Origin: Octopus vulgaris
Lineage: Eukaryota
Length of the DNA: 64,000 nucleotides
NCBI GenBank assembly: GCA_951406725.2
Contig: OX597815.1
Span: forward strand, 97,526,001 to 97,590,000
Direction: 5' to 3'
Positions within the stretch are counted from its first letter, which is position 1; every line of letters begins with the position of its first letter. Below are positions 1 to 63,860 of this stretch, piece after piece. The position numbers and the translations under genes were made by a program. Under the pieces are notes generated by a model that saw nothing but the letters and a program-made list of their open reading frames with translations, was not told where the DNA came from and searched no databases.

Positions 1-1484
1 CGGAGAATCCATCAAGCTAGCCGTCTGCATTTTATCACCAGATTAGCAATATGCATTTGGAAAGATGCATCATTGCTCATGTCAATGCCCAGGTCACGCA
101 CTGATTTTGACTCAGGGATTGCAATTCTTCCTGGGCCAGTGTATCCAGTTTTCACGTCATTTACCTTTGTGTGCCAGCAGCGCAGGACCTGGAACTTACC
201 TGCATTAAACTGCATGTTGTTGTCCTCAGCCCACCTGTATATTGTGTCCAGCTCATGTTGCAGATGCGCAATATTTTCAGGGTTTTGTATTGCGTGGGAG
301 ACTTTTGTGTCATCTGCATAGCTAGCAAGGGTGGTCATCGTAGCAACTGAAGGCATGTCTGAAAGGGCCACTATGAACATCAGTGACCCCAAGACAGTGC
401 CCTGTGGGACACCGCTTGTTATTTGCGTTTCCTTGGAGATGGCTCCATTGCTCACAACTGCCTGTTTTCTGTCTTTTAGGAAGTTGTGCAGCCACTCTCC
501 ATGTTTCCCGCCTATGCCGAGACCACGCAGTTTGTGACAGATCATACCATGGTCGACTTTATCAAAGGCTTTTGCAAAGTCGAGATATATTACATCCACA
601 TTTGAGCCATTTAGTAGCTGTTTCAACACCCAGTCATAGTGTTGCAGGAGCTGTGTTAGGCAGCTTCTACCTGGTCGAAATCCATGCTGGGTGTCAGACA
701 GCAAGTCATTTTCTTCAAGGAACATGATTAGTTTCTTACGGACTATTCGTTCCATGACTTTGCTGATGTGTGAGGTCAGAGAGATAGGCCTATAATTTTT
801 AGCATCTGCTCTGCTACCTCCCTTATGGATAGGGCATATTACCCCCTCTTTCAGTTTGACTGGGAGCTTACCACTTGCAAGAAAGCTCTGCAAAAGAAGC
901 TGTAGCGGTTTTGCAAGGGCTCGTTTGCACGATTTGAGAAGGATCGCTGGGAATCCATCAGGTCCAGTAGCTGAGTTTGTGTCAATCGCATCAATGGCTA
1001 GTGTGATATCATCATCTTCGATGTTGATGTACTCAATTTTTGTCTCTTTGGCCGCAGGTAAAGTGGCAAAGAATTCTTCTGGGTTGTTTACTTGCATGTG
1101 TCCTAGAGGTGTAGTGAACACACTTTGGAACTGTTCGTTCAGTATTTCACTTATCCTCGTGGGATTTCCTGTGAGAGAGCCATCTTTTTGGAAGAGAGGT
1201 CCTATTCTCTGGTGCACTGTGGCTGTCTCTTTGGCAAACTTAAAGAAAGCTTTAGGGTTTGATTTTATATTTTCTATTACCCAAGCTTCTTTATCTGCTC
1301 TCTCCTTTTCATGGGACTGATGTAGACTTTTCTCAGTTTCCATTAGCATTCTTTCGAGCCGGGACTTCTCACCACTTTTGGTGTGCTTGCTCAGGCGGTT
1401 TGCAATCCTTGTCCGTCGTCTCATAAGAATCCTCCTTTCTCTAGGGATCCTGTTTTTGTTCTTGTGTGTGCTGGCCCTGCACAC
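1..1484 (-). mobile_element. CR1-group (CR1/L2-like) non-LTR retrotransposon fragment with RT domain, 5'-truncated, continuing off the window edge
   Basis: 490-aa ORF with [47 protein letters not shown] and VRDLGI motifs. No APE endonuclease domain. The TGA at 12-14 is followed in frame by WIL, so it looks like a premature stop. Confidence 0.93.
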
Positions 1485-1744: not shown

Positions 1745-2086
1745 GTGAAGGCGCATGGCTCAGTGGTTAGAGCGTCGAGCTTACGATCGTGTGGTTGTGA
1801 GCTCGAATCCCGGACCGGGCTGCGTGTTGTGTTCTTGAGCAAGGCACTTTATTTCACGTTGCTCCAGTTCACTCAGCTGTAGAAATGAGTTGCGACGTCA
1901 CTGGTGCCAGGCTGTATCGACCTTTGTCTTTCCCTTGGATAACACTGGTGGTGTGGAGAGGGGAGGCTGGTATGCATGGGCGACTGCTGGTCTTCCATAA
2001 ACAACCTTGCCCAGACTTGTGTCTAGGAGGGTAACTTTCTAGGTGCAATCCCATGGTCATTCATGACCGAAGGGGGTCTTTACCCT

Positions 2087-2088
<2 letters not shown>
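1745..2088 (+). mobile_element. tRNA-derived SINE, family A, copy 1 (344 bp)
   Basis: A box TGGCTCAGTGG, mutated B box GCTCGAATCC, CORE-like segment TTCTTGAGCAAGGCACTT. Near-identical copy at 18067-18410. Flanked by (TA)n. Confidence 0.9.
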
Positions 2089-4737: not shown

Positions 4738-6269
4738 TAGATTTGCTACTTCTCTTATTCATCCCTTTTTACTCATTTTTTCACATTCCATTCCTCCTTG
4801 TCTTTCGTTGCATAGTTATTGTTTCCTCTGATCATTCGTCAGGAAATCTTATATTTTTTTGCTTTAGTTTTCTATTCTTACGAAGGTCATCCTAACTGTA
4901 ATCAACCTTATCAGCTTTCCGTTTGACATCCATTATTATTATCCTAGTTGGCATCGTCAACATGATCACAAAATTCACCATCACCATTAACACACGCATT
5001 TTCTTTCTCATTATATTGCGCTTCGTCATTTTGTAGTTGCTGTTAATATTAGGTTGTATTATGACAGTATTATGTTACTGTCATTTTCTAAGTCACGACG
5101 AATTACATATATGCCACATGCATTTCACACAAAGTAGATCAGCTAAACTATTGCATTCTCAATTATATTTTATTGGAACGGACTCGTGTAAAACATCAAG
5201 ATATATTGCAGAGTAATGTTTCAAAAACTTCTCCGCATATACAACATTTACCAGTTACATGTCAGATATTGGGTATTTTATTTCCTAAGGATACGGTAGA
5301 GATCGTCATTTCGTGTATTGCGGATGTTTCTGCTCCTGTAAACTTATTCAGGCAGGACATTGTCATCACACAACCTGGTAATTAGGTGGAATTCTGGTTT
5401 AAGCACCAGATATAAGCCTTCATAAGTTTTTCCTTTCATGTTCAGAAAATTTTTGCGAATTTGTGTTTTACACACACAAATTCATACGATTTTAAAAAAA
5501 TATTTTGTTGTTAAGCTCTTCTTCCCCAAGAAATCCTAAAAGTTCCACTCCTTTTGGAATTTTTATAAAATCAGCGTTGAAAAGTGCGAACTGTCCGATT
5601 TTTATATTTTGCTTCAATAACAGCAACGGAACACCCTTGGGTGCATCATCATTCCCTTAAATGGATCATGAAGAGCAAAAGAAAAAAAAAGAATCAGTAC
5701 ATGTCAGAATGACGAGGAAGATCTCAGGTGGCCATGAGATGTGCTAAAACCAACAGTTAAATCGCCTTTAAAACACACAAAATTTGTTTTGCATAATCGA
5801 ATTAATTCCCGCATATAGAATGCAAATTCCCAAAACATTTCTGTAAAGTCCAAAAAGTAAAATTGTTATGAGGGGTTATATGACTGCTTAAACCAGAGTT
5901 CCACCAGTAATCAAATGAATGTCCCTTTGTGTTTGATAACGATGGTTGACACGAAAAATGCTGGTGCCATTATGCATCTCACTGCTGCTGCACTTGGTTT
6001 AAATTTCAATTATCAAATATCACTTTTAATTACTGGTTAGAATTTTGCTGTTCCAGTGACAATATATTGGCTACCTTTTGAACGATAGTAATCAACATCC
6101 AAATGCAAATAATTTTGTCGTGAGCTTGACGTTTGTTCATTTCCGCAATACGGATTACGCAGTAATGCAGGGGAGATTTACATGCATTTTTGCATCGATT
6201 CAGAGATATCACCGATTATCGTGTTAAATTATCGTGTAATTTAACATTAAGTATTAACCATTAACAATG

Positions 6270-10674: not shown

Positions 10675-10682
<8 letters not shown>

Positions 10683-11051
10683 AATCAACGAAAATGCATA
10701 TTGCAAATAGAAAAAGGCTATTTATGACAGGTAGTGTCAAATATATACATTTAGATTGACTGAGGTAGTAATACGAGTCATAAAGGTCATTATTATGAGA
10801 TGATAATAAAGTAAGAGAATAAAGTAAAAGAACAAAGATATGTTAACGGTGCTGTTCAAACAATGAATAGCCTTCGCGTAAACACTGGTTCGTTTTGTTC
10901 TCTTATTTATTATCATCTTATAATCATCTTATAATAATGATCTTTATGACACGTATTACTACCTCAGTAAATCTAAATGTATATATTTGTCACTACCTGT
11001 CATAAATAGCCTTTTTTATTTGCAATATGCATTTTCGTTGATTTTTCATAT
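10675..11051. repeat. Long imperfect inverted repeat (arms ~160 bp)
   Basis: ATGAAAAATCAACGAAAATGCATATTGCAAATA... versus ...TATTTGCAATATGCATTTTCGTTGATTTTTCAT. Confidence 0.9.
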
Positions 11052-12355: not shown

Positions 12356-12396
<41 letters not shown>

Positions 12397-12399
<3 letters not shown>

Positions 12400-12590
12400 G
12401 GGGAGAGGAGAATTCACACAAAAGGAACGAAGACAGGTGGTGTAGACAACAAAAAGATGTATTAGTTTAACGCTCGGGAAGTGAAAAAGTCTTTAACGTT
12501 TCGAGCCTACGCTCTTCCACAGAAAGGAACACAGAAAAAACAGAGAGAGAGAATTTTTTAAAATGTGTAACGATCTATCATGGCGAATGC

Positions 12591-12593
<3 letters not shown>
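12397..12593 (-). mobile_element. Short non-coding Penelope pLTR-like element, family H, copy 1
   Basis: Homologous to 43905-44100 and 63665-63860, sits between (TA)n runs, and carries a hammerhead-like motif. Confidence 0.7.
12491..12526 (-). ncRNA. Candidate minimal type I hammerhead ribozyme (variant core)
   Basis: Minus strand reads CTTT-CTGTGGA-A-GAGC-GTAG-GCTC-GAAAC-GTT-AAAG: helix I, core, helix II, GAAA, NUH. Confidence 0.6.
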
Positions 12594-12630
<37 letters not shown>

Positions 12631-13296: not shown

Positions 13297-14659
13297 ATTA
13301 TTATTATTGTTCATCCATGTCGCTTTCGGCTCGCTTGTCGGAAAAGGATGACCACTTCAGACATGTTTTGAAAAGAGGAATAAATCTTACACAATGCTGT
13401 GATTTCCGTAAACATTATCTTGCCTTTGATACATTCAGTAATATTGCAGTGATTGATGCAAAGCTTTTCTTGCAACAAATATTTACCAGTATGTTAAAGA
13501 AAGTAGTGCACAAGATTTTGATTGGACAGATTTCAACATCAGCAGCTTTAATAACACGTATGGTCTCGCGTTTATCTCTGTATTTATTCCATAAATTTGA
13601 ACATAATCTGAAATTTATCAGCCGACATCGAGCGTTACGACTTAGGTAATTAATTTTAGAGTTCTTAGCTGTGGGTTTGTAAATAGTCAAACAGGATGCA
13701 CCTGTTGAAGACTATTCCAGAAAGAGTCAAAACTTGCATCTAATACTGTTCCGGCTTTTTCGAACCACGAAAAAAATATACATGAATTGTTAAATCGTAG
13801 CACACATTATTCGCTGACGATTTTACACACACATGCACACACACACAAACACACACACACATGAACACACACACACACGCACACCTACACATCCATACAC
13901 ACATATATGTACGTGTGTGTTTATATATACAAATTGTTAGTAATCTAAATAGAAGTGTAGTGGAAAATACCGAAAAAATATATTAGAATTAATTAGAATT
14001 TAATTATATTTTTCAAATATATGAATACAATTGAGAGGTTTCGCATTAGATTTTTTTAAATGCACACTGTATGAAGCTGTGTCATGAATCATAAGTATTT
14101 TTTAAGTGTGTATGTCTCATATACATACATTTATGCGTATACATACGTAATATATCTTAAGGCCGTTTTAAGCAGCTCCATTTAATTGATAATTGAAAAC
14201 ATTACATCAATTTGAAAGACTTCGTGCGACATAAAATCTAAATCTTAAGCAATTACGAATTTTTTAAAAATTGTTTTTCTTTGTGTTTGGAATCTGTATG
14301 GCTATCTGCGTCTGAAGAGAGCCGTTTCTTTCAAACTGATGTAATGATTTTATTGATCAATTAAGTGGAGCCTTTTGAAACACCCGTAATGTTTTGACAC
14401 CTGTACATTCTTGTTACTTATTTACATTTAGTACAACTAATTTAGAGCTGCGCTGACTAAGCCGAACTGGGAAGGTGCCTCAATTTAATGTCCTAATTCA
14501 ACTAAATCTTAATTATATTTTACACATACATATGTGTGTATGCATGCATGTATGTTTGTATGTGTATATATATATGTGTGTGTGTGTGTGTGCGTGTGTA
14601 TGAACAAATGCTTATATATGTGTGTATATACGTGTATATACACACATAATGTCACATGT

Positions 14660-15630
14660 TAACACATTTATTTGCAAGTAAGTAACTCTCTGTTTTAAAT
14701 TTTTCCAGGTTCATATGATTACGTTCAAGGTAGCTTCGTCATTCATACGTGCCATCCTTGCTACATTCACGCATCTTTTTTTGAAACATTCGCTAGACAA
14801 AACTTGCCTCTCTACTCTCACTTTCCTTTTCAAGTGATACTTGAAAAAGTTGATGAGAGATTGACCAGAGAGGAAAGTGTTTGTCTTCAATTCTTTCAGA
14901 CGCATCCACCAGATACATTCTTTTGCCATAGTCACAACTATGATGAAAATAGCTCTTCCTTCCCGTTTGAAGGAAGAAGGCGTGATGATATTGACGATAG
15001 ACTCGGCTGATAAACCGACTCGTCCGACACGTGACAGCAGTCGTTCGACATAAGCCCACAGGTCGGATATGGTTAAGCACTGCACGAGTGCGTGCAGAAC
15101 GGTTTCGTCGCTCTGCCCGCATCTCGAGCAGGTCAGCCCCGTGTTTCTCGAGCCGTGTCTGTAGAGCTTAATTCGAACGGGTAATGCTTCTCGATAGCAC
15201 TGCCAGGTCAGGCAAGTTGTCCATGGGTCCTGAACAGGCGGGTCACGTATTCCTCATCGACGCCCAGGTTCGACCCGAGCTCGTTGTCGTACCTCTCCTC
15301 CACTAATCCCTTATAGAGTGCTTTAGTTGTGTTGAAGTCGCTCAAGGTCAACTCGGGACGGCATAGTTGCTTGAGAGCAACGCGACACTCGCGGTGCCAT
15401 TTGCCCTTCCTCGACCTCTTTTTGTTCCATGACTGCAGTTCGGTAATGGAGACGAGTTGCGGGAAAGCCTGTCTCACAAACGGTGACCACACCTGTTCAT
15501 CGTCGTCTACGTAGAGCCGGAGATGTCGCATTCTCAGCGTGTGCCTGCGCATCATCAACCACGACATGTCCAATCCTCCTTTTACACTCCTCCTTTGACA
15601 ACGCAAAACACGAAGGGTGTGTCAGAGCTA
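14660..15630 (-). mobile_element. Tx1/L1-clade LINE 3' fragment
   Basis: KGGLDMSWLMMRRH (GGLG-like block) and CCHC knuckle CSRCGQSDETVLHALVQC at ~15078-15131. Stop at 14711 with AATAAA downstream. GC-rich relative to its flanks. Confidence 0.8.
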
Positions 15631-18066: not shown

Positions 18067-18406
18067 GTGAAGGCGCATGACTCAGTGGTTAGAGCGTCGA
18101 GCTTACGATCGAGAGGTTGGGAGTTCGAATCCCGGACCGGGCTGCGTGTTGTGTTCTTGAGCAAGGCACTTTATTTCACGTTGCTCCAGTTCACTCAGCT
18201 GTAGAAATGAGTTGCGACGTCACTGGTGCCAAGCTGTATCGACCTTTGTCTTTCCCTTGGATAACACTGGTGGCGTGGAGAGGGGAGGCTGGTATGCATG
18301 GGCGACTGCTGGTCTTCCATAAACAACCTTGCCCGGACTTGTGTCTAGGAGGGTAACTTTCTAGGTGCAATCCCATGGTCATTCATGACCGAAGGGGGTC
18401 TTTACC

Positions 18407-18410
<4 letters not shown>
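18067..18410 (+). mobile_element. tRNA-derived SINE, family A, copy 2
   Basis: About 8 substitutions versus 1745-2088 by eye. B box GTTCGAATCC is intact. Inserted in (TA)n. Confidence 0.9.
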
Positions 18411-18460
<50 letters not shown>

Positions 18461-18465
<5 letters not shown>

Positions 18466-19240
18466 GCAGTGTACATTTAAACACATTTAGAGGTTTCAGT
18501 CGTAGGAACCCTTTACGCTAGAAAGAACATCTAAAGTCCAAACCACTAATTACGGATAAATTCTTGAAGGGAATGAAGAATAAAATCATTTACCATCTCT
18601 TTCCTGGACCATGGTTTCTGACTTATTTTAATAAATAAAATAATTTACCAGGCGAATTCTTCATCGACAGGGACGCCTAAGATTAAATATATAAATATAT
18701 AAATATTTTTCATTCCATTCTAGAATTTATTCGTAATTAGTGGTTTGGACTTTAGCTGTTCTTTCTAGCATAAAGGATTCCTACAATGGAAACGTCTTAG
18801 CGTGTTTAAATGTACACTGTATTTTATATGAATAATATATAGTCTATTGCCTGATTTTTCTATACGCTAGGCCACTGTTAGTAAAACTTTCTAAAATCTT
18901 TATTACTCTGATATTATTAATTATGTATACTGATTTCTGGTAGATTCGTTCGAAGAATTTGCCGGCATCGTTATGCTGCCGGTAAAAAGACTGCGCTTGC
19001 GCGGTGGATTTGAAAAAATTTGAAAAAGATTTTTAATGTATAAGCAATGAAGCACATGTTGGTTTAGTATCGTTGTTTATATATTTAATATTTGGCGTAC
19101 ATATTGATGAAGACTTCGCCTTGTAAATTATTTTATTTACTAAAATAAGTCAGAAATCATGGTCCAGGAAAGAGATGGTAAATGTTTATCTTTTTCATCC
19201 CCTTCGAGAATTTATCCGTAATTAGTGGTCTGGACATTAG
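18461..19240. repeat. Composite overlapping inverted-repeat element
   Basis: 18461-18580 is inverted at 18703-18828, and 18535-18668 is inverted at 19104-19240. Confidence 0.85.
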
Positions 19241-25751: not shown

Positions 25752-26532
25752 TTTGAATAGAGGAAGGTGAACAGAGAGTGAGGGAAAGGTTGATAGGTTA
25801 GTATCCAATTGGATGAAGTTGTATTAAGTGGTTTTCGAAAGAATACCACTTGTGAGGAAGGGGAGGCTGTGAGGAAAATGGGATGAATGGCGGCATAACA
25901 TCGCCATCACTAGTGATCACTCCAAATAATGTGATGTTGACTAGATGTTTGATTTTTATCACTCTCGGTACATGTTTTGGGGACACGACAAGCCAAAATT
26001 TGTTCTATTTGTTCACCACCTGTTCGTAATGGATCTTCCGGAGCGAATTTCAAACACACAGCAGGTTGATTCCAAATTTCTGGCAGATTCAATTGCGTTA
26101 TGAGGATATTTTTTCTCACAAATAGTGCCCTAGGCGACATTTTACGCATCGCATCCTGCAACAGCTCCTCATTGCTTCATAGATTCTCAGATGTGATATT
26201 CTCTTATAATCATAGGTACTTCTTATCATTTGACCATTTTGCTAAATCAATATACTCCCATAATTATAATTATCTTTAATTAAAATTAATCTCGAGGTAG
26301 GACAAGATTAGCCTATCAACTTCACCCTCCACTAATACCGGACTTCCTACTAAATTATTCCTTCATGTGATTACCTTGCAAGCTCCTCTTACCCACCACA
26401 TCCCACATCCCTCACACCCTCCCCATCCGCACAAGTGGTATCCTTTCCAATACCACTTTATACAACTTCACCTAATTGGATACTAACCTATCAACCTTTC
26501 CTTCTCTCTCTGTTCACCTTCCTCTATTCAAT
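25752..26532. repeat. Inverted repeat, ~110-bp arms (25752-25863 and 26421-26532)
   Basis: TTGAATAGAGGAAGGTGAACAGAGAG... versus ...CTCTCTGTTCACCTTCCTCTATTCAA. Confidence 0.85.
25880..25990 (-). mobile_element. Short mariner-like (maT/DD37D) transposase fragment
   Basis: IKHLVNITLFGVITSDGDVMPPF resembles the KHPxxxMVFG...G block. Confidence 0.6.
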
Positions 26533-30639: not shown

Positions 30640-31840
30640 CATTTTTTTGTAGCGAGTTATGCGCATCCCGAACTCCCGAAAGAATCGATGCAGTTTTGTT
30701 TTGAAGACGCCTATGTCCACCTAATGCCGGATTTTCAAATTTTTGGCAGGGTATCGAAGAGTCTTTGCCCCTAGAATTCTAAGTTGTTAGAGTATGCTGT
30801 TCTGTATCCAGAGTGCAATTCTGGGATTTTTTACATTATGCAGTTGCGCCCTCTTCTGCTGTTGGTGTAACTAACAATGCCAAAATTCTTCTAGAATTTT
30901 CCACGTGTATCACTTCATATCTCTCCGGACTTTGTTCTTGGGAGTAGAGCTTTAAAGTTTTCAATCCTTCCCAGTAACTGGAATAACGGATTCAGATAAG
31001 CTTTGCCTAGTATTTTCCTTGAATGGTTTCCAGTTCCGTCGTTGAATTAACACTGTGTGGTGACCATAGTTGTGAGCAGTTACCTAAAAGAGCTGTGGAC
31101 GGAGGTCCTCCAGAAGACTATCATTGTTTCCTGTCATCTCGTACTGAAAGTTATAAGAACCCATCCACCCAGCCGTCTACATTTTATTTGCAGCTGGGTA
31201 ATATGCACCTGGAAAGTTGGATCATTATTCATTCCAATGCCTGTGTCGCACACTGATTTTAATTCAGGGATTGCAATCCATCTCCGACTCAGTATATACT
31301 CTTTGCATTTCATTCAGTTTCTCGTGCTGACGAGGCAGGTCTTGGAGTGTTCAAGCATTAAACTGCATGTTATTGTGTTTAGCCTACCTGTATATTGCAG
31401 TCATCTCCTATTTTAGGTGCGCAATTTGTCTAAGACGATGCATCCTCTGAGAGATTTTTGCCTCATTTGCATAGCTTGCAATGGTGGGCTATCTGAACAG
31501 CTGAGGTTGTGACTGAGAGGGCCAATCTGAATAGCAGTGGGGCACCGTACTTGTGTTTCTTTAGATGTCGTCCCATTGGCTGCTACAACCCGATTTCTAC
31601 ATTTTAGAAAGTCATGTATCTACTCCAAGACTTTTTTACTATACTGAGATTACGCACCTTGTGACATATACTATGACCGACTTTATCAAAGGCCTTTACA
31701 AAGTCGAGATTTATGATGTGTATATTTGCGCTGTTGAGCAGCTGCTTTAATACCCAATCGCAGTGCTGTAAGCGCTGTGTCAAGTAGCTTCTACTTGGTC
31801 GAAAACCGTACTAGGAGTCTGTAAATCATTCTCTTCACAT
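30640..31840 (-). mobile_element. Degenerate CR1-group LINE, older relative of the element at 1-1484
   Basis: Nucleotide similarity to 1-720, e.g. CACTGATTTT...CAGGGATTGCAAT and CGACTTTATCAAAGGC...CAAAGTCGAGAT. Confidence 0.85.
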
Positions 31841-43904: not shown

Positions 43905-44100
43905 AGTGAGAATTTACGAAAAAACAAAAGACAAAGAAGGCTGTATAAGCAACAAACAGGTATTAGTTTAACGCTCGGGAAGTGAGAAAGACTTTTATGT
44001 TTCGAGCCTACGCTCTTCAACAGAAAGGGATACATAAAGAAAATGAAAAACAGGTTTAGTGGCTAGCGATTTATCATGACGACTGCTGGACAGAATGGTC
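43905..44100 (-). mobile_element. Family H element, copy 2 (hammerhead-like motif at 43992-44027)
   Basis: CTTT-CTGTTGA-A-GAGC-GTAG-GCTC-GAAAC-ATA-AAAG on the minus strand. Homologous to 12397-12593. Confidence 0.7.
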
Positions 44101-44552
44101 AGACAAGAGAGTTGGGAAGAAGGGGAGATAATAAAGTAATGGCTATCCCAAAACGAAGGTGCGCGTGCGTATGTATGTGGGAGCGTGTATGAGCGTGTGA
44201 AGGGGGGGTTGGCCGTGACGTGTGCGTTTGTGCATGTGTTGGCGTCTTGATGATGGTATGGGTGCTGGGAATTGGTCACTGCTAATGAGTGCGGGGTGGT
44301 ATGATGCGGTGTGGTGTGATATGGTGGTGTATGGTGTGGTAACAGTTACAATTCTTAGGTGTTAGCCTAATACAGTCACCAGTAATTGTGTCATATTTTC
44401 AATTTCAACCCACTAACCTGAAATATATTAGCATTTAATAATATTGCATCGCCTTTTGATTAATCTACTTTACTTGCTATATCATAAGCATGATATTGAT
44501 ATTTGTGAGAAACTAAATAACCTTTTCTATAGAACCTGGAAGTGTAAATCAA

Positions 44553-48150: not shown

Positions 48151-50004
48151 GTAAGTACTATATATTCATATATATTTTGTTTTTATTATCAGCTACTGGA
48201 AGGCCAAATGACAAAGGATGTAGTTATTCTCAGACTGGGGAACTGTTTCAAATGTTTGCTAAAAATGAAGTTCATTCCACGGGGTAATTAGGAATGATAA
48301 TAAAGACAATGGATTATTTTTTCTAGCCAATTCGTTATAAAGAAATTGCATATATATTGATATTATAATATATGTATGTGCGGGTTTCTGCCTAGAAAAG
48401 AAAATAATATATGTATGTATGTGTATCCTGCCCATATCTATATTTTGGGTTAATTTAATCGAAAGTCCTTTTGTGGTTATTCATGTCTATTTGTACACAA
48501 GTCTCTTAGTAGTGAGATTTGTGATAAAGAGAGTAATGGCAATAACTATTGCACGCTTTTCTCTGATTTCTTTCATACAAAATATATCAAGATATTCATA
48601 ATAATCCTCTTCGCTTAAGTTAGTATGACTTAAGTTCCAGATTTAGCAGCAGCTTCTTTCTGGCATTTGACGAACTCTGTAAGAGAAATCCTCGAGTATT
48701 CGTATCGAATAATTTTGAATGACACTCAATCAAAATAGCTGTGATCAGTCCCTCTTACCCATATCCTTATATATTTACTTATATAGACGCACACACACAC
48801 ACACGCCCCCATACATATGTATGCATGGTGTGTGTGTGTGTATGTGTGTGTGTGTGTGTGCGCGCGCGTGTATATGTGTGTGTGTATGTGTGTGTTCGTG
48901 TGTTTGTGGCTTTTAGCAATACCAATTTCGCTATCTACTCATTTGTTTATCAATATGTATAACATGTTTCTTTTCCCAAATTTAACATAAACTATAATAG
49001 TTGTACTTAAGATTTATACACAAACTTCAGATGAGTGGCCGAGACCATAGTTTACTCCTATGGGCATCACGGAATTTATGTTTATGTCATTGAAATGTAT
49101 AATCATACTATCACGTTGCTCATTCTGATGTCATTTTTATTCAAAACCAGTTCAAATTTGACCAACTAAACCTATGAATACATTGACTTTTGTCTTTGAC
49201 CATCAGTTCTTGTCAGGTTTAGAGTATCCAATACTACATTACCCAATGCATCCCTCATCTTTTGAAGTAGTACTATGCAAATTTAGTTAAAATTGTTAGC
49301 TATTTCTAGCTTGTCGAGCGATTTCTAACCAAGAAATTTCATCGATGGCTCATTTAACACACATTTAGAAGAAATAGAAGATCAAAAGGAATATATAGAA
49401 AGTTATTCGTATTTAGAAAGTAAATCAATACATCAGAAATATTGTACCTAGGGTATGCAGATCAGCGAGAAAAGAGGTGATGCCTTGTTCATACAGAATT
49501 ACAATAAGAATCTATAGATTTCGGGCTAGTGGACATCAGAAATGTTTCAAAAGGCTTCAGTTAATATCAGTACTAAGTTAATAACAAAAAAAAATCATAC
49601 GATTCTCTCTTTTGATGTGTAACTTATATAAAGACATTACATGATTATGAAAGATATTACATGATTATGAAAATGATAAACTGATTAATCAAAGATTAGT
49701 GATTAAACAGTGATTATGAAGTAATTAGTGCGGGGTTCGTTCAATGGAAACACTATTAATAGAGACACGGAGGAATGAATATCAAACGTTGTAGAGCTGA
49801 AATTATTGTGCAATTAGCGAATGATTCTAAATTTTCTTTTCAAAATGCGATATCACTTATTAAAAAATGCTTCCTGATAAACACATTATATATAATTACA
49901 TACGCACATACATACATACCTACATATGCACATAGATACGCACATACATATATGCATACATACGCACATACATACGTACATACATACAAACATACATGAA
50001 AATA

Positions 50005-51361
50005 TAATTTACAATGGCTCCTTTAACAAAACACGTATCACTAAAGACTATTACAGCCTAATAAAGAAAATTTGGACCTCAGACCTCTCTACATTCAAGG
50101 CCCACAATGTGTTTGCAGTACCAGTACTCATACCAACATTTGAATGTCGCATCATATCCCTTCGGCAACATCTCTTAACCACCAAGCGTCGACGTGCATC
50201 CCTTGCCCAAGTTTGCTTGGATGAGGCTGATAACATTATAAGACTTGGAAAGCAGCTCCTTCAGCAACACACTTTGTCTGATAACCTAGAATGCATACCC
50301 AAAGATGTTGCTCGACTCTACTGCAACGTATAAATCAGATGAAAGGATGAGGCTATATGAGCAGAAGACTATGCATGGATATTTTACTAGAAAGCTCCAT
50401 GATGATAGTAACATCGATCATCAAAGCTTATCATGGATGACTAGCCGAATAGCTACCTCCCATTTGGAAGGGCATGTGTTTGCAATCCAGGAACATAAAA
50501 TATCAACCAAGTACCTGATGCACAAAAAGGATAGGGAAGCGAGAGAAGCAGTAAAATGTGATAACCCATCAGACTTTGTGGAGTTCACACTGAAGATATC
50601 ACCCACATCATAAGCAGTTGTCCAAAAATGTCATCACGGTATTATCTACCGATGGGACATGACGGTGTAGCTAGGACACTCTATAATGAAACCCGTCAGA
50701 AAGATAATGCCAGAGATAAAGAAATAAAAACCCATAATGTCGTAGAAGCCATAGCCACTGATAATGAAAACTAATACTGGTGGAATGTACCAGCGAAGAC
50801 CTCAATAAAATGTACGCACAACGGACCTGATATAATGAGTTGGGATAGAAAAGAGAAAATGTGTACAGTTTTGGAAATTAGCGGCCCAGCGGATGTTAAT
50901 ATAAAGCTGAAGAGCAGTGAAAAAGAGAATACCTACGCTGAACTATCGAGAAGTCTTAAATTACTCTATCCAGATTACAAGATCTGGTTTATGCCTGTAA
51001 TTATTAGGGTCCTAGAATATGTAACACAATGTCTAAATACCAATTTTGAGAAATTAGGCTTCTCAAAACCAGAAAGAAGAAAGCTAATTCGAAGACTGCA
51101 TTTCCAATCCATCACTGGAACTGTAAAAATCTGTAAAACTTGCCAGAAGTTTATCATTGGAATATATATGTGCATGTCTAGATAGGCAGCAATATCTGTG
51201 AGAATACATACATAAAAGAAAACATACAAATCTGCACATAAACATACAAGCAAAAATACCCTGTTGTTGATGTTGAAATTCTAATGAAGGAGCCTGGAAT
51301 CTACGTTAGAAATGGCTCTTTCTATATCGGCGAGAAATCTTAAAATAAAACTAAACAATGA
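50005..51361 (+). mobile_element. Dong/R4-clade non-LTR retrotransposon 3' fragment, internally deleted
   Basis: AHNVFAVPVLIPTF, MHGYF, SHLEGHVFAIQE, EDITHIISSCP, HDGVAR and NGPDIMSWDRKEKMCTVLEISGP...EKENTY (REL endonuclease). (ATAC)n tail. Confidence 0.85.
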
Positions 51362-63664: not shown

Positions 63665-63669
<5 letters not shown>

Positions 63670-63857
63670 GAATTTACAAAAAATCAAAAGACGAAATCGA
63701 GTGTGTAAACAACAAACAGATGTATTACTTTAACGCTCGGGAAGTGAGAACGTCTTTTACGTTTCCGCCTACCCTCTTCGACAGAAAGGAACGCAGAAAT
63801 AAACAGGGGGAGAAAATAGAAAAAGGTTTAGTGTCTAGGGATCTATCATGGTGATCT

Positions 63858-63860
<3 letters not shown>
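63665..63860 (-). mobile_element. Family H element, copy 3 (hammerhead-like motif at 63754-63788)
   Basis: CTTT-CTGTCGA-A-GAGG-GTAG-GCG-GAAAC-GTA-AAAG, with helix II damaged. Sits between (TA)n runs. Confidence 0.7.

What the first reader, a model, noticed from the sequence alone, without database searches (positions are those of the whole stretch)
12491..12526. Three-copy non-coding element carrying a minimal hammerhead-like fold with a non-canonical CUGUNGA core
Seen: three ~200-bp homologues (12397, 43905, 63665; all minus strand, all abutting (TA)n) share CUUU-CUGUNGA-A-GAGC-GUAG-GCUC-GAAAC-RUH-AAAG. This gives a 4-bp helix I, a 4-bp helix II, GAAA, a rudimentary helix III and an NUH triplet. 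The core position that differs among copies (G/U/C) is N7, the free position of hammerheads, while U replaces the conserved A6 in all three. Known: Penelope-like pLTRs carry minimal type I hammerheads proposed to work as dimers. Inference: a non-autonomous Penelope-derived family that spread with an A6U core, either as a functional variant or after losing the need for cleavage.
Basis: partly seen in the sequence, partly recalled or inferred. Interest (0 to 1): 0.8.

Follow-up and report, generated by a model that had tools for sequence, protein, structure and literature searches.

The report
Altered-core hammerhead in abundant octopod repeat
A very abundant short repeat in what looks like an octopus-type genome carries the small self-cutting-RNA motif typical of Penelope-like jumping genes, but with one normally fixed core base changed across the sampled copies, and whether it still cuts itself is untested.

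Summary
The three copies are real (77-82% identical). Copy C's helix II is broken, so 2 of 3 carry the full fold. The motif fits the published Penelope minimal-hammerhead consensus except for U at position 6. Laying four public runs on copy A shows a family of roughly 10^5 copies (rough) in three organisms. U6 is effectively fixed: A6 is under 3% in two DNA runs and under about 20% in the other two. N7 carries all four bases and H17 varies U/A. No catalytic or helix position has a variant at about 20% or more. A6U therefore came before N7 diversified, and hammerhead-type constraint apparently continued after it. Against the reading: no helix covariation, no Penelope ORF linked, no RNA ends at the cut site, and published position-6 changes cripple cleavage. 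U6 also closes the monomer into a rod. Verdict: a real hammerhead homologue with a core variant I found in no paper searched. Penelope origin is inferred; cleavage is untested (about 40%).

The parts
12397..12594 (-). Copy A of the repeat, between two (TA)n tracts
12491..12526 (-). Minimal type I hammerhead-like motif of copy A: helix I 12523-12526/12491-12494; C3=12522, U6=12519, N7=12518, extra A after A9=12515; helix II 12511-12514/12503-12506; G12=12502; palindrome 12496-12499; H17=12495; expected cut between 12495 and 12494
   Evidence: numbering by comparison with PMC4209133
12466..12484 (-). 19-nt block just 3' of the motif, identical in all three window copies; role unknown
   Evidence: alignment
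12359..12396 (.). (TA)n tract at the 3' end of copy A
12595..12628 (.). (TA)n tract at the 5' end of copy A
43905..44095 (-). Copy B; motif 43992-44027 with both helices intact, N7=U, 16.2=A, H17=A
44096..44420 (-). CA-rich stretch 5' of copy B; candidate longer 5' part of the same element (unproven, no second copy in the window)
63665..63860 (-). Copy C between (TA)n tracts; motif 63754-63788 with helix II decayed, N7=C, H17=A

Best explanation
The copies are the 3'-terminal (pLTR-like) pieces of a very abundant retroelement family of an octopod, most likely Penelope-like, inserted into (TA)n. SHOWN: high copy number, presence in three organisms, (TA)n 3' junction, minimal-hammerhead architecture, U6 fixed or nearly so, N7 four-way variable. 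INFERRED: an ancestor's hammerhead changed A6 to U; the family then diversified while its source elements stayed under selection for hammerhead geometry. U6 pairs with A15.1 and extends a U4-G5-U6/A15.1-C15.2-G16.2 stem, so a single copy folds as a closed rod and should not cut. The palindrome at 15.1-16.1 still allows the two-copy fold known for these motifs. My most likely mechanism is a locked, slow hammerhead that cuts only conditionally (as a dimer in tandem source transcripts, with protein or metal help) to make ends of the transposition RNA, or that serves in the same geometry as a signal for the element's protein. Dispersed genomic copies are inert passengers that decay, as copy C shows. 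I put real cleavage at about 0.4.
For: Architecture matches the consensus printed in the PMC4209133 supplement at every element but A6: U-rich 5' flank, extra base after A9, G10.1-C11.1, palindromic 15.2-16.2, NUH. 0 descriptor hits in 300 shuffles. 14,388, 9,920 and 13,975 contigs of three DNA runs and 2,795 RNA reads lay on copy A. N7 shares U/C/A/G: X1 20/17/28/34, X2 39/12/4/45, X4 45/13/20/22 (G by subtraction). The 4 motif sites with a variant at about 20% or more (N7, H17, first loop-2 base, 16.2) all fall among 9 model-free positions of 36 (p=0.002; p=0.01 with 6 strictly free positions). Constrained 0 of 27 versus flanks 10 of 75, one-sided p=0.04. Three changes at one named site has p of about 4e-4 at the flank rate. 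Probability of the G5-C15.2 pair is 0.47-0.98 with U6 and 0.00-0.10 with A6. Curated Hydra-clade elements, including one from Octopus, insert in (TA)n and carry the hammerhead about 100-200 nt from the 3' end (PMC8557442 supplement). A natural A6C core keeps low activity and is rescued by Mn2+ (PMC3088659; PMC7151607).
Against: No covariation in either helix. No Penelope ORF seen next to any copy. In one RNA run no place has many molecules beginning or ending, and depth does not dip at the cut site (both strands are equally covered, so this is weak). Deep scanning of a type III hammerhead found all single and double CUGA mutants low except the 3-8 swap (PMC9901934). The active-type dimer evaluates at -9.9 to -10.9 kcal/mol, less stable than two monomers (-12.4 to -17.0) or the best co-fold (nearest-neighbour model, no tertiary contacts). 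Naiad elements spread without a canonical hammerhead (PMC8557442). Two of the four variable sites (12497, 12510) are CpG. Tandem copies are rare in the lay.
Confidence: 0.55

Rival explanations
1. Dead relic. A6U killed the ribozyme in one founder, which amplified anyway because Penelope proteins do not need it. N7 variability is chance or a mutational hotspot among a few source elements.
For: Position-6 changes are strongly deleterious. Hammerhead-less Naiads thrive. Most flank positions (65 of 75) also lack a common variant, so invariance is the default. Some four-state site among 111 is expected with p of about 0.05. No RNA ends at the site.
Against: The four-state site is exactly the one position hammerheads leave free, and U6 is shared by all N7 states. 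H17 varies U/A with no common G. 0 of 27 constrained positions vary.
Confidence: 0.25
2. Overlapping constraint of another kind (a reading frame, or a DNA or splice signal) explains the pattern. In one minus frame N7 is the third base of a valine codon.
For: 6 of 10 common variant sites between 12467 and 12526 are third positions in that frame (binomial p=0.077). The frame is open for 116 codons in copy B.
Against: The upstream pyrimidine tract has indels and stops in A and C. H17=A makes a stop in 26-78% of DNA depth. Other fourfold sites in that frame (U4, C11.1, a helix I U) have no common variant. Two protein searches with the frame found only low-complexity matches or nothing.
Confidence: 0.08
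3. The motif is a hammerhead homologue but the carrier is not Penelope-derived, e.g. a SINE-like element, a tail of another LINE, or dispersed monomers of a tandem retrozyme.
For: No Penelope ORF linked here. Octopus genomes are SINE-rich (PMC13282606; PMC8967140). Retrozyme families have dispersed monomers (bioRxiv 10.64898/2026.07.22.740005). Two RNA reads show a head-to-tail joint (table 5c).
Against: The minimal architecture, (TA)n target and distance to the 3' end are Penelope traits. Joints are single contigs or 2-3 reads out of thousands laid. No tRNA gene called in the window.
Confidence: 0.1
4. Chance resemblance to a hammerhead.
For: No Rfam hammerhead hit. Six exact matches to the core-plus-helix-II pattern occur in prokaryote genomes.
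Against: 0 hits in 300 shuffles. The six prokaryote matches lack NUH and helix I and lie in long ORFs. Variation falls on model-free sites.
Confidence: 0.02

Closest known systems
Minimal type I hammerheads (min-HHR) of metazoan Penelope-like elements (Cervera and De la Pena 2014, PMC4209133; parts 1-2 of 4 of the text read, supplement part 2 of 3 read, whole PDF searched)
   Same: U-rich 5' flank, 4-bp helix I, extra base between A9 and G10.1, G10.1-C11.1, GAAA, palindromic 15.2-16.2 with no loop 3, NUH; mostly single dispersed copies.
   Different: U instead of A at position 6 (44 of 44 alignment rows seen have A6). Helix II is 4 bp, at the short end of the published range. No linked Penelope ORF shown here.
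Hydra-clade and other Penelope-like elements with (TA)n targets, incl. Hydra-1_Obim (Craig et al. 2021, PMC8557442; passages and supplement part 2 of 59 read, archive searched)
   Same: (TA)n insertion, hammerhead near the 3' end, presence in octopus.
   Different: All 34 tabulated motif rows have A6 and most have a small helix III. Hydra-1_Obim's motif differs in sequence. Four 10-12-nt motifs of this repeat were not found in the archive.
Natural A6C hammerhead of phage Bcep176 (Perreault 2011, PMC3088659, section 8 and passages; Naghdi 2020, PMC7151607, parts 1-2 of 4)
   Same: Natural pyrimidine at position 6.
   Different: C not U; a single phage example with measured low, Mn2+-favoured activity, against a variant fixed in a roughly 10^5-copy animal repeat with no assay.
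Non-LTR retrozymes (Cervera and De la Pena 2020, PMC7229834, passages; bioRxiv 10.64898/2026.07.22.740005, part 1 of 5 and passages)
   Same: Short non-coding units of 200-400 nt with a type I hammerhead, proposed to derive from Penelope elements.
   Different: Retrozymes are tandem arrays with canonical cores and circular RNAs. These copies are dispersed singles in (TA)n with almost no tandem joints.

Membership tests
Penelope-type minimal hammerhead (min-HHR) | Core C3 U4 G5 A6 N7 G8 A9 | tested here: not met
   U6 in 3 of 3 copies; A6 under 3% in X1 and X4, under about 20% in X2 and X24. The other six positions fit.
Penelope-type minimal hammerhead (min-HHR) | Extra nucleotide between 9 and 10.1; G10.1-C11.1; helix II | tested here: met
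   Copies A and B; decayed in C; no variant at about 20% or more in the four runs.
Penelope-type minimal hammerhead (min-HHR) | G12 A13 A14 A15.1, palindromic 15.2-16.2, U16.1, H17 | tested here: met
   Copies A and C; B has 16.2=A; H17 is U or A.
Penelope-type minimal hammerhead (min-HHR) | Helix I closing the motif (type I) | tested here: met
   4 bp possible in 3 of 3 copies; low predicted probability in the whole element.
Penelope-type minimal hammerhead (min-HHR) | Covariation supporting helices | tested here: inconclusive
   No common variant in either helix, so nothing to covary; 60 of 100 rows hidden.
Penelope-type minimal hammerhead (min-HHR) | Self-cleavage after H17, as a dimer | not testable with these tools
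   No RNA-end pile-up in one ordinary RNA-seq run; needs an assay.
Penelope-like elements | ORF with telomerase-related RT and GIY-YIG endonuclease next to the repeat | tested here: inconclusive
   None in 150 of 226 high-complexity window frames; no genome held.
Penelope-like elements | Hammerhead about 100-200 nt from the 3' end; (TA)n target in several clades | tested here: met
   86-94 nt from motif end to (TA)n in 3 of 3 copies versus the table.
Penelope-like elements | pLTR-ORF-pLTR or partial tandem structure | not testable with these tools
   No assembly; contigs laid are short.
Non-LTR retrozymes | Tandem arrays of hammerhead-bearing units | tested here: not met
   Three single copies 20-31 kb apart; joints limited to single contigs or 2-3 reads.
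Non-LTR retrozymes | Circular monomer RNAs | not testable with these tools
   Two head-to-tail reads only (table 5c).

The most novel reading that the evidence does not exclude
One of the most abundant repeat families of octopods carries a working hammerhead with a U6 core: the change locks single copies as a rod and lets cleavage happen only in a dimer or with a protein or metal cofactor. It would be a natural conditional ribozyme at about 10^5 loci, invisible to every CUGANGA-based search, and would imply further hidden families.
Probability: 0.3. Interest if true: 0.75.

Novelty: new variant of a known kind. Interest (0 to 1): 0.5.

Why it matters
What Penelope hammerheads do is open: they cut poorly in vitro (PMC4209133) and some clades lack them (PMC8557442). 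A family that amplified to very high copy number with a change at a near-invariant core position, yet still varies only where hammerheads may vary, is a natural experiment. If it cuts, position 6 is more permissive than mutagenesis suggests and string descriptors such as the cuganga one used in PMC8557442 miss whole families. If it does not cut, the motif has a non-catalytic job in retrotransposition. A one-base revertant assay separates the two.

Tried and rejected
No whole genome is held, so no genome-wide alignment, covariance model or 5' extension was possible. The repeat finder was swamped by microsatellites. Rfam: no hammerhead. Pattern scans: metagenomes 0 and 0; prokaryote genomes 0 and 6 chance matches; viral contigs 6 matches limited to the 16-17-mer. 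Protein searches with copy B's 116-codon frame: none at E<=0.01 among longer proteins and 3 low-complexity hits. Papers: no natural A6U report in searches for hammerhead+A6C/A6U, CUGUNGA spellings, hammerhead+position 6+natural variant, octopus+Penelope+hammerhead; judged from listings, titles and abstract starts except for the papers named as read. Four repeat motifs were in no main text nor in two supplements. 'Twinhead' (a recalled SINE name) with octopus: 0 papers. Lunse et al. (PMC5785218) and an octopus genome paper were not held. Earlier scan findings: nothing by sequence or place. Coding-frame explanation tested and judged weak.

Full report
Observation. Three minus-strand homologues lie at 12397-12594 (A), 43905-44095 (B) and 63665-63860 (C), 77-82% identical, with no fourth copy in the window. 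Each has U at core position 6, and G, U or C at position 7. Copies A and B fit a minimal type I hammerhead descriptor with position 6 left free, and 300 dinucleotide shuffles give no hit. Copy C has a broken helix II, contrary to the finding, and B has lost the ACGU palindrome. All three end in (TA)n 86-94 nt after the motif. A and C also begin at (TA)n, while B continues into a CA-rich stretch that may be a longer part of the element. Rfam has no hammerhead hit.

Host. No genome is held. The window is 34% GC and microsatellite-rich, and the best named relatives of its LINE RT are from Argonauta hians at 55-59% identity. I infer an octopod. Organism names in the run search are coded.

Family-wide picture. 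The run search listed 22 of 24 rows as holding part of copy A. I laid four runs: X1 (organism A), X2 (B), X4 (C) as contigs and X24 (B) as raw RNA reads, at 80% likeness and 3% share. 14,388, 9,920 and 13,975 contigs and 2,795 reads were laid. Summed depth over typical contig depth gives about 4x10^4 to 5x10^5. The tool warns this is no copy number, but 3 copies per 64 kb over an octopus-sized genome (2.8 Gb implied by PMC13282606's table) gives about 10^5 too.

Is U6 fixed? Position 12519 is not among the 40 variant rows shown; 60 are hidden. The lowest listed row has about 19.5% in its best run, so hidden rows appear to lie between 3 and about 20%. The per-run counts of A>T places (5 in X1, 2 in X4) are fully used by listed rows, so A6 is under 3% in those two runs. 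One and two A>T places are unaccounted for in X2 and X24, so there the bound is about 20%. C6 or G6 at 3-20% cannot be excluded. Relatives below 80% identity are not seen.

Where does the family vary? Within the 36-nt motif only four sites reach about 20% in any run: N7 (all four bases; X1 U20/C17/A28/G34, X2 39/12/4/45, X4 45/13/20/22, RNA 35/32/5/28), H17 (A in 78, 26, 56 and 35%), the first loop-2 base (23, 7, 9, 29%) and 16.2 (6, 6, 9, 22%). The last two are CpG sites. All four fall among nine positions the model leaves free (p=0.002, or 0.01 on a stricter list). None of 27 constrained positions varies, against 10 of 75 flank positions (p=0.04). Hidden C>T and G>A places number three each per DNA run, as CpG decay would give, and may include G12. 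Because U6 is shared by all N7 states, A6U most simply came first and the hammerhead-like pattern of freedom persisted after it. These tests are modest: I drew the classes, sites are not independent, and few source lineages may dominate. There is no helix covariation.

Structure. U6 can pair with A15.1. In the 36-mer the G5-C15.2 pair has probability 0.47-0.98 across N7 and H17 states with U6, and 0.00-0.10 with A6. The monomer is thus predicted to be a closed rod topped by helix II. The active-type dimer is not the lowest-energy state in this model for either base. In the whole element helix I is not predicted.

RNA. The family is present in an RNA run (2,795 of 12.9 million records), equally on both strands, 98% of reads running on into unlike sequence, which fits passengers in host transcripts. 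No place has many molecules beginning or ending. This is weak evidence against bulk cleavage and says nothing about rare source transcripts.

Comparison. The published consensus of Penelope minimal hammerheads matches at every element except A6, which is present in 44 of 44 rows I saw (PMC4209133 supplement part 2) and 34 of 34 rows of Craig et al.'s table. Those motifs cut weakly and only as dimers. Known natural core variants include U3-A8 and A6C; A6C is slow and Mn2+-favoured. Deep scanning found CUGA mutants low with no rescue except the 3-8 swap. I found no natural A6U. Lunse et al. (not held), Perreault's figure of inactive variants (legend only), bioRxiv supplements and Repbase/Dfam were not seen and could hold one. 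By the strict core definition this is not a member of the min-HHR class; it is built like one and is almost certainly homologous. Penelope membership is inferred from architecture, (TA)n target and spacing. No Penelope ORF was found in 150 of 226 window frames, and non-autonomy is unproven.

Verdict. A real, family-wide A6U hammerhead homologue in a very abundant octopod repeat. Constrained hammerhead-derived motif 0.55 (actual cleavage about 0.4), dead relic 0.25, other carrier 0.10, overlapping coding or DNA constraint 0.08, chance 0.02. New variant of a known kind; interest 0.5.

Noticed in passing
window 1745-2087 and 18067-18409 (+): Two 343-bp copies, 97.7% identical, beginning with a tRNA-like head (by eye; ARAGORN calls no tRNA): a young SINE-like family.
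   Followed up: no
window 12-1480 (-) and 31156-31837: LINE RT frame (Pfam RVT_1, E 4.6e-29) whose best named relatives are Argonauta proteins; a 68% identical decayed relative lies at 31156-31837.
   Followed up: partly
window 14711-15621 (-): LINE C-terminal fragment with zf-RVT.
   Followed up: no
window 49896-51185 (+): Broken frames that look like the restriction-like endonuclease end of an R4/Dong-type element (recalled motif; Pfam gave no hit).
   Followed up: no
window 10679-11047, 18464-19240, 25753-26531, 5385-5905, 14157-14389: Inverted-repeat pairs of 60-150 bp, MITE-like.
   Followed up: no
lay on window 12455, 12481, 12482: Variants at 30-44% in organism B's DNA run but under 8% in organisms A and C: a lineage-specific subfamily.
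   Followed up: no
lay on window 12536 to 12426: Two RNA reads join the 5' side of the motif to the element's 3' end through 16 letters: a head-to-tail dimer or circle, below the tool's listing threshold for joints (table 5c).
   Followed up: no
lay on window 12485: Loose ends in X1 and X2 show a subfamily with a different sequence between the motif and the conserved 19-nt block (table 7).
   Followed up: no
window 12440-12465 (-) and equivalent in copy B: Downstream of the motif a branch-point-like CTAAT is followed by a pyrimidine-rich run, with an AG only in copy B; Penelope pLTRs can hold introns (PMC4209133). Unexamined.
   Followed up: no
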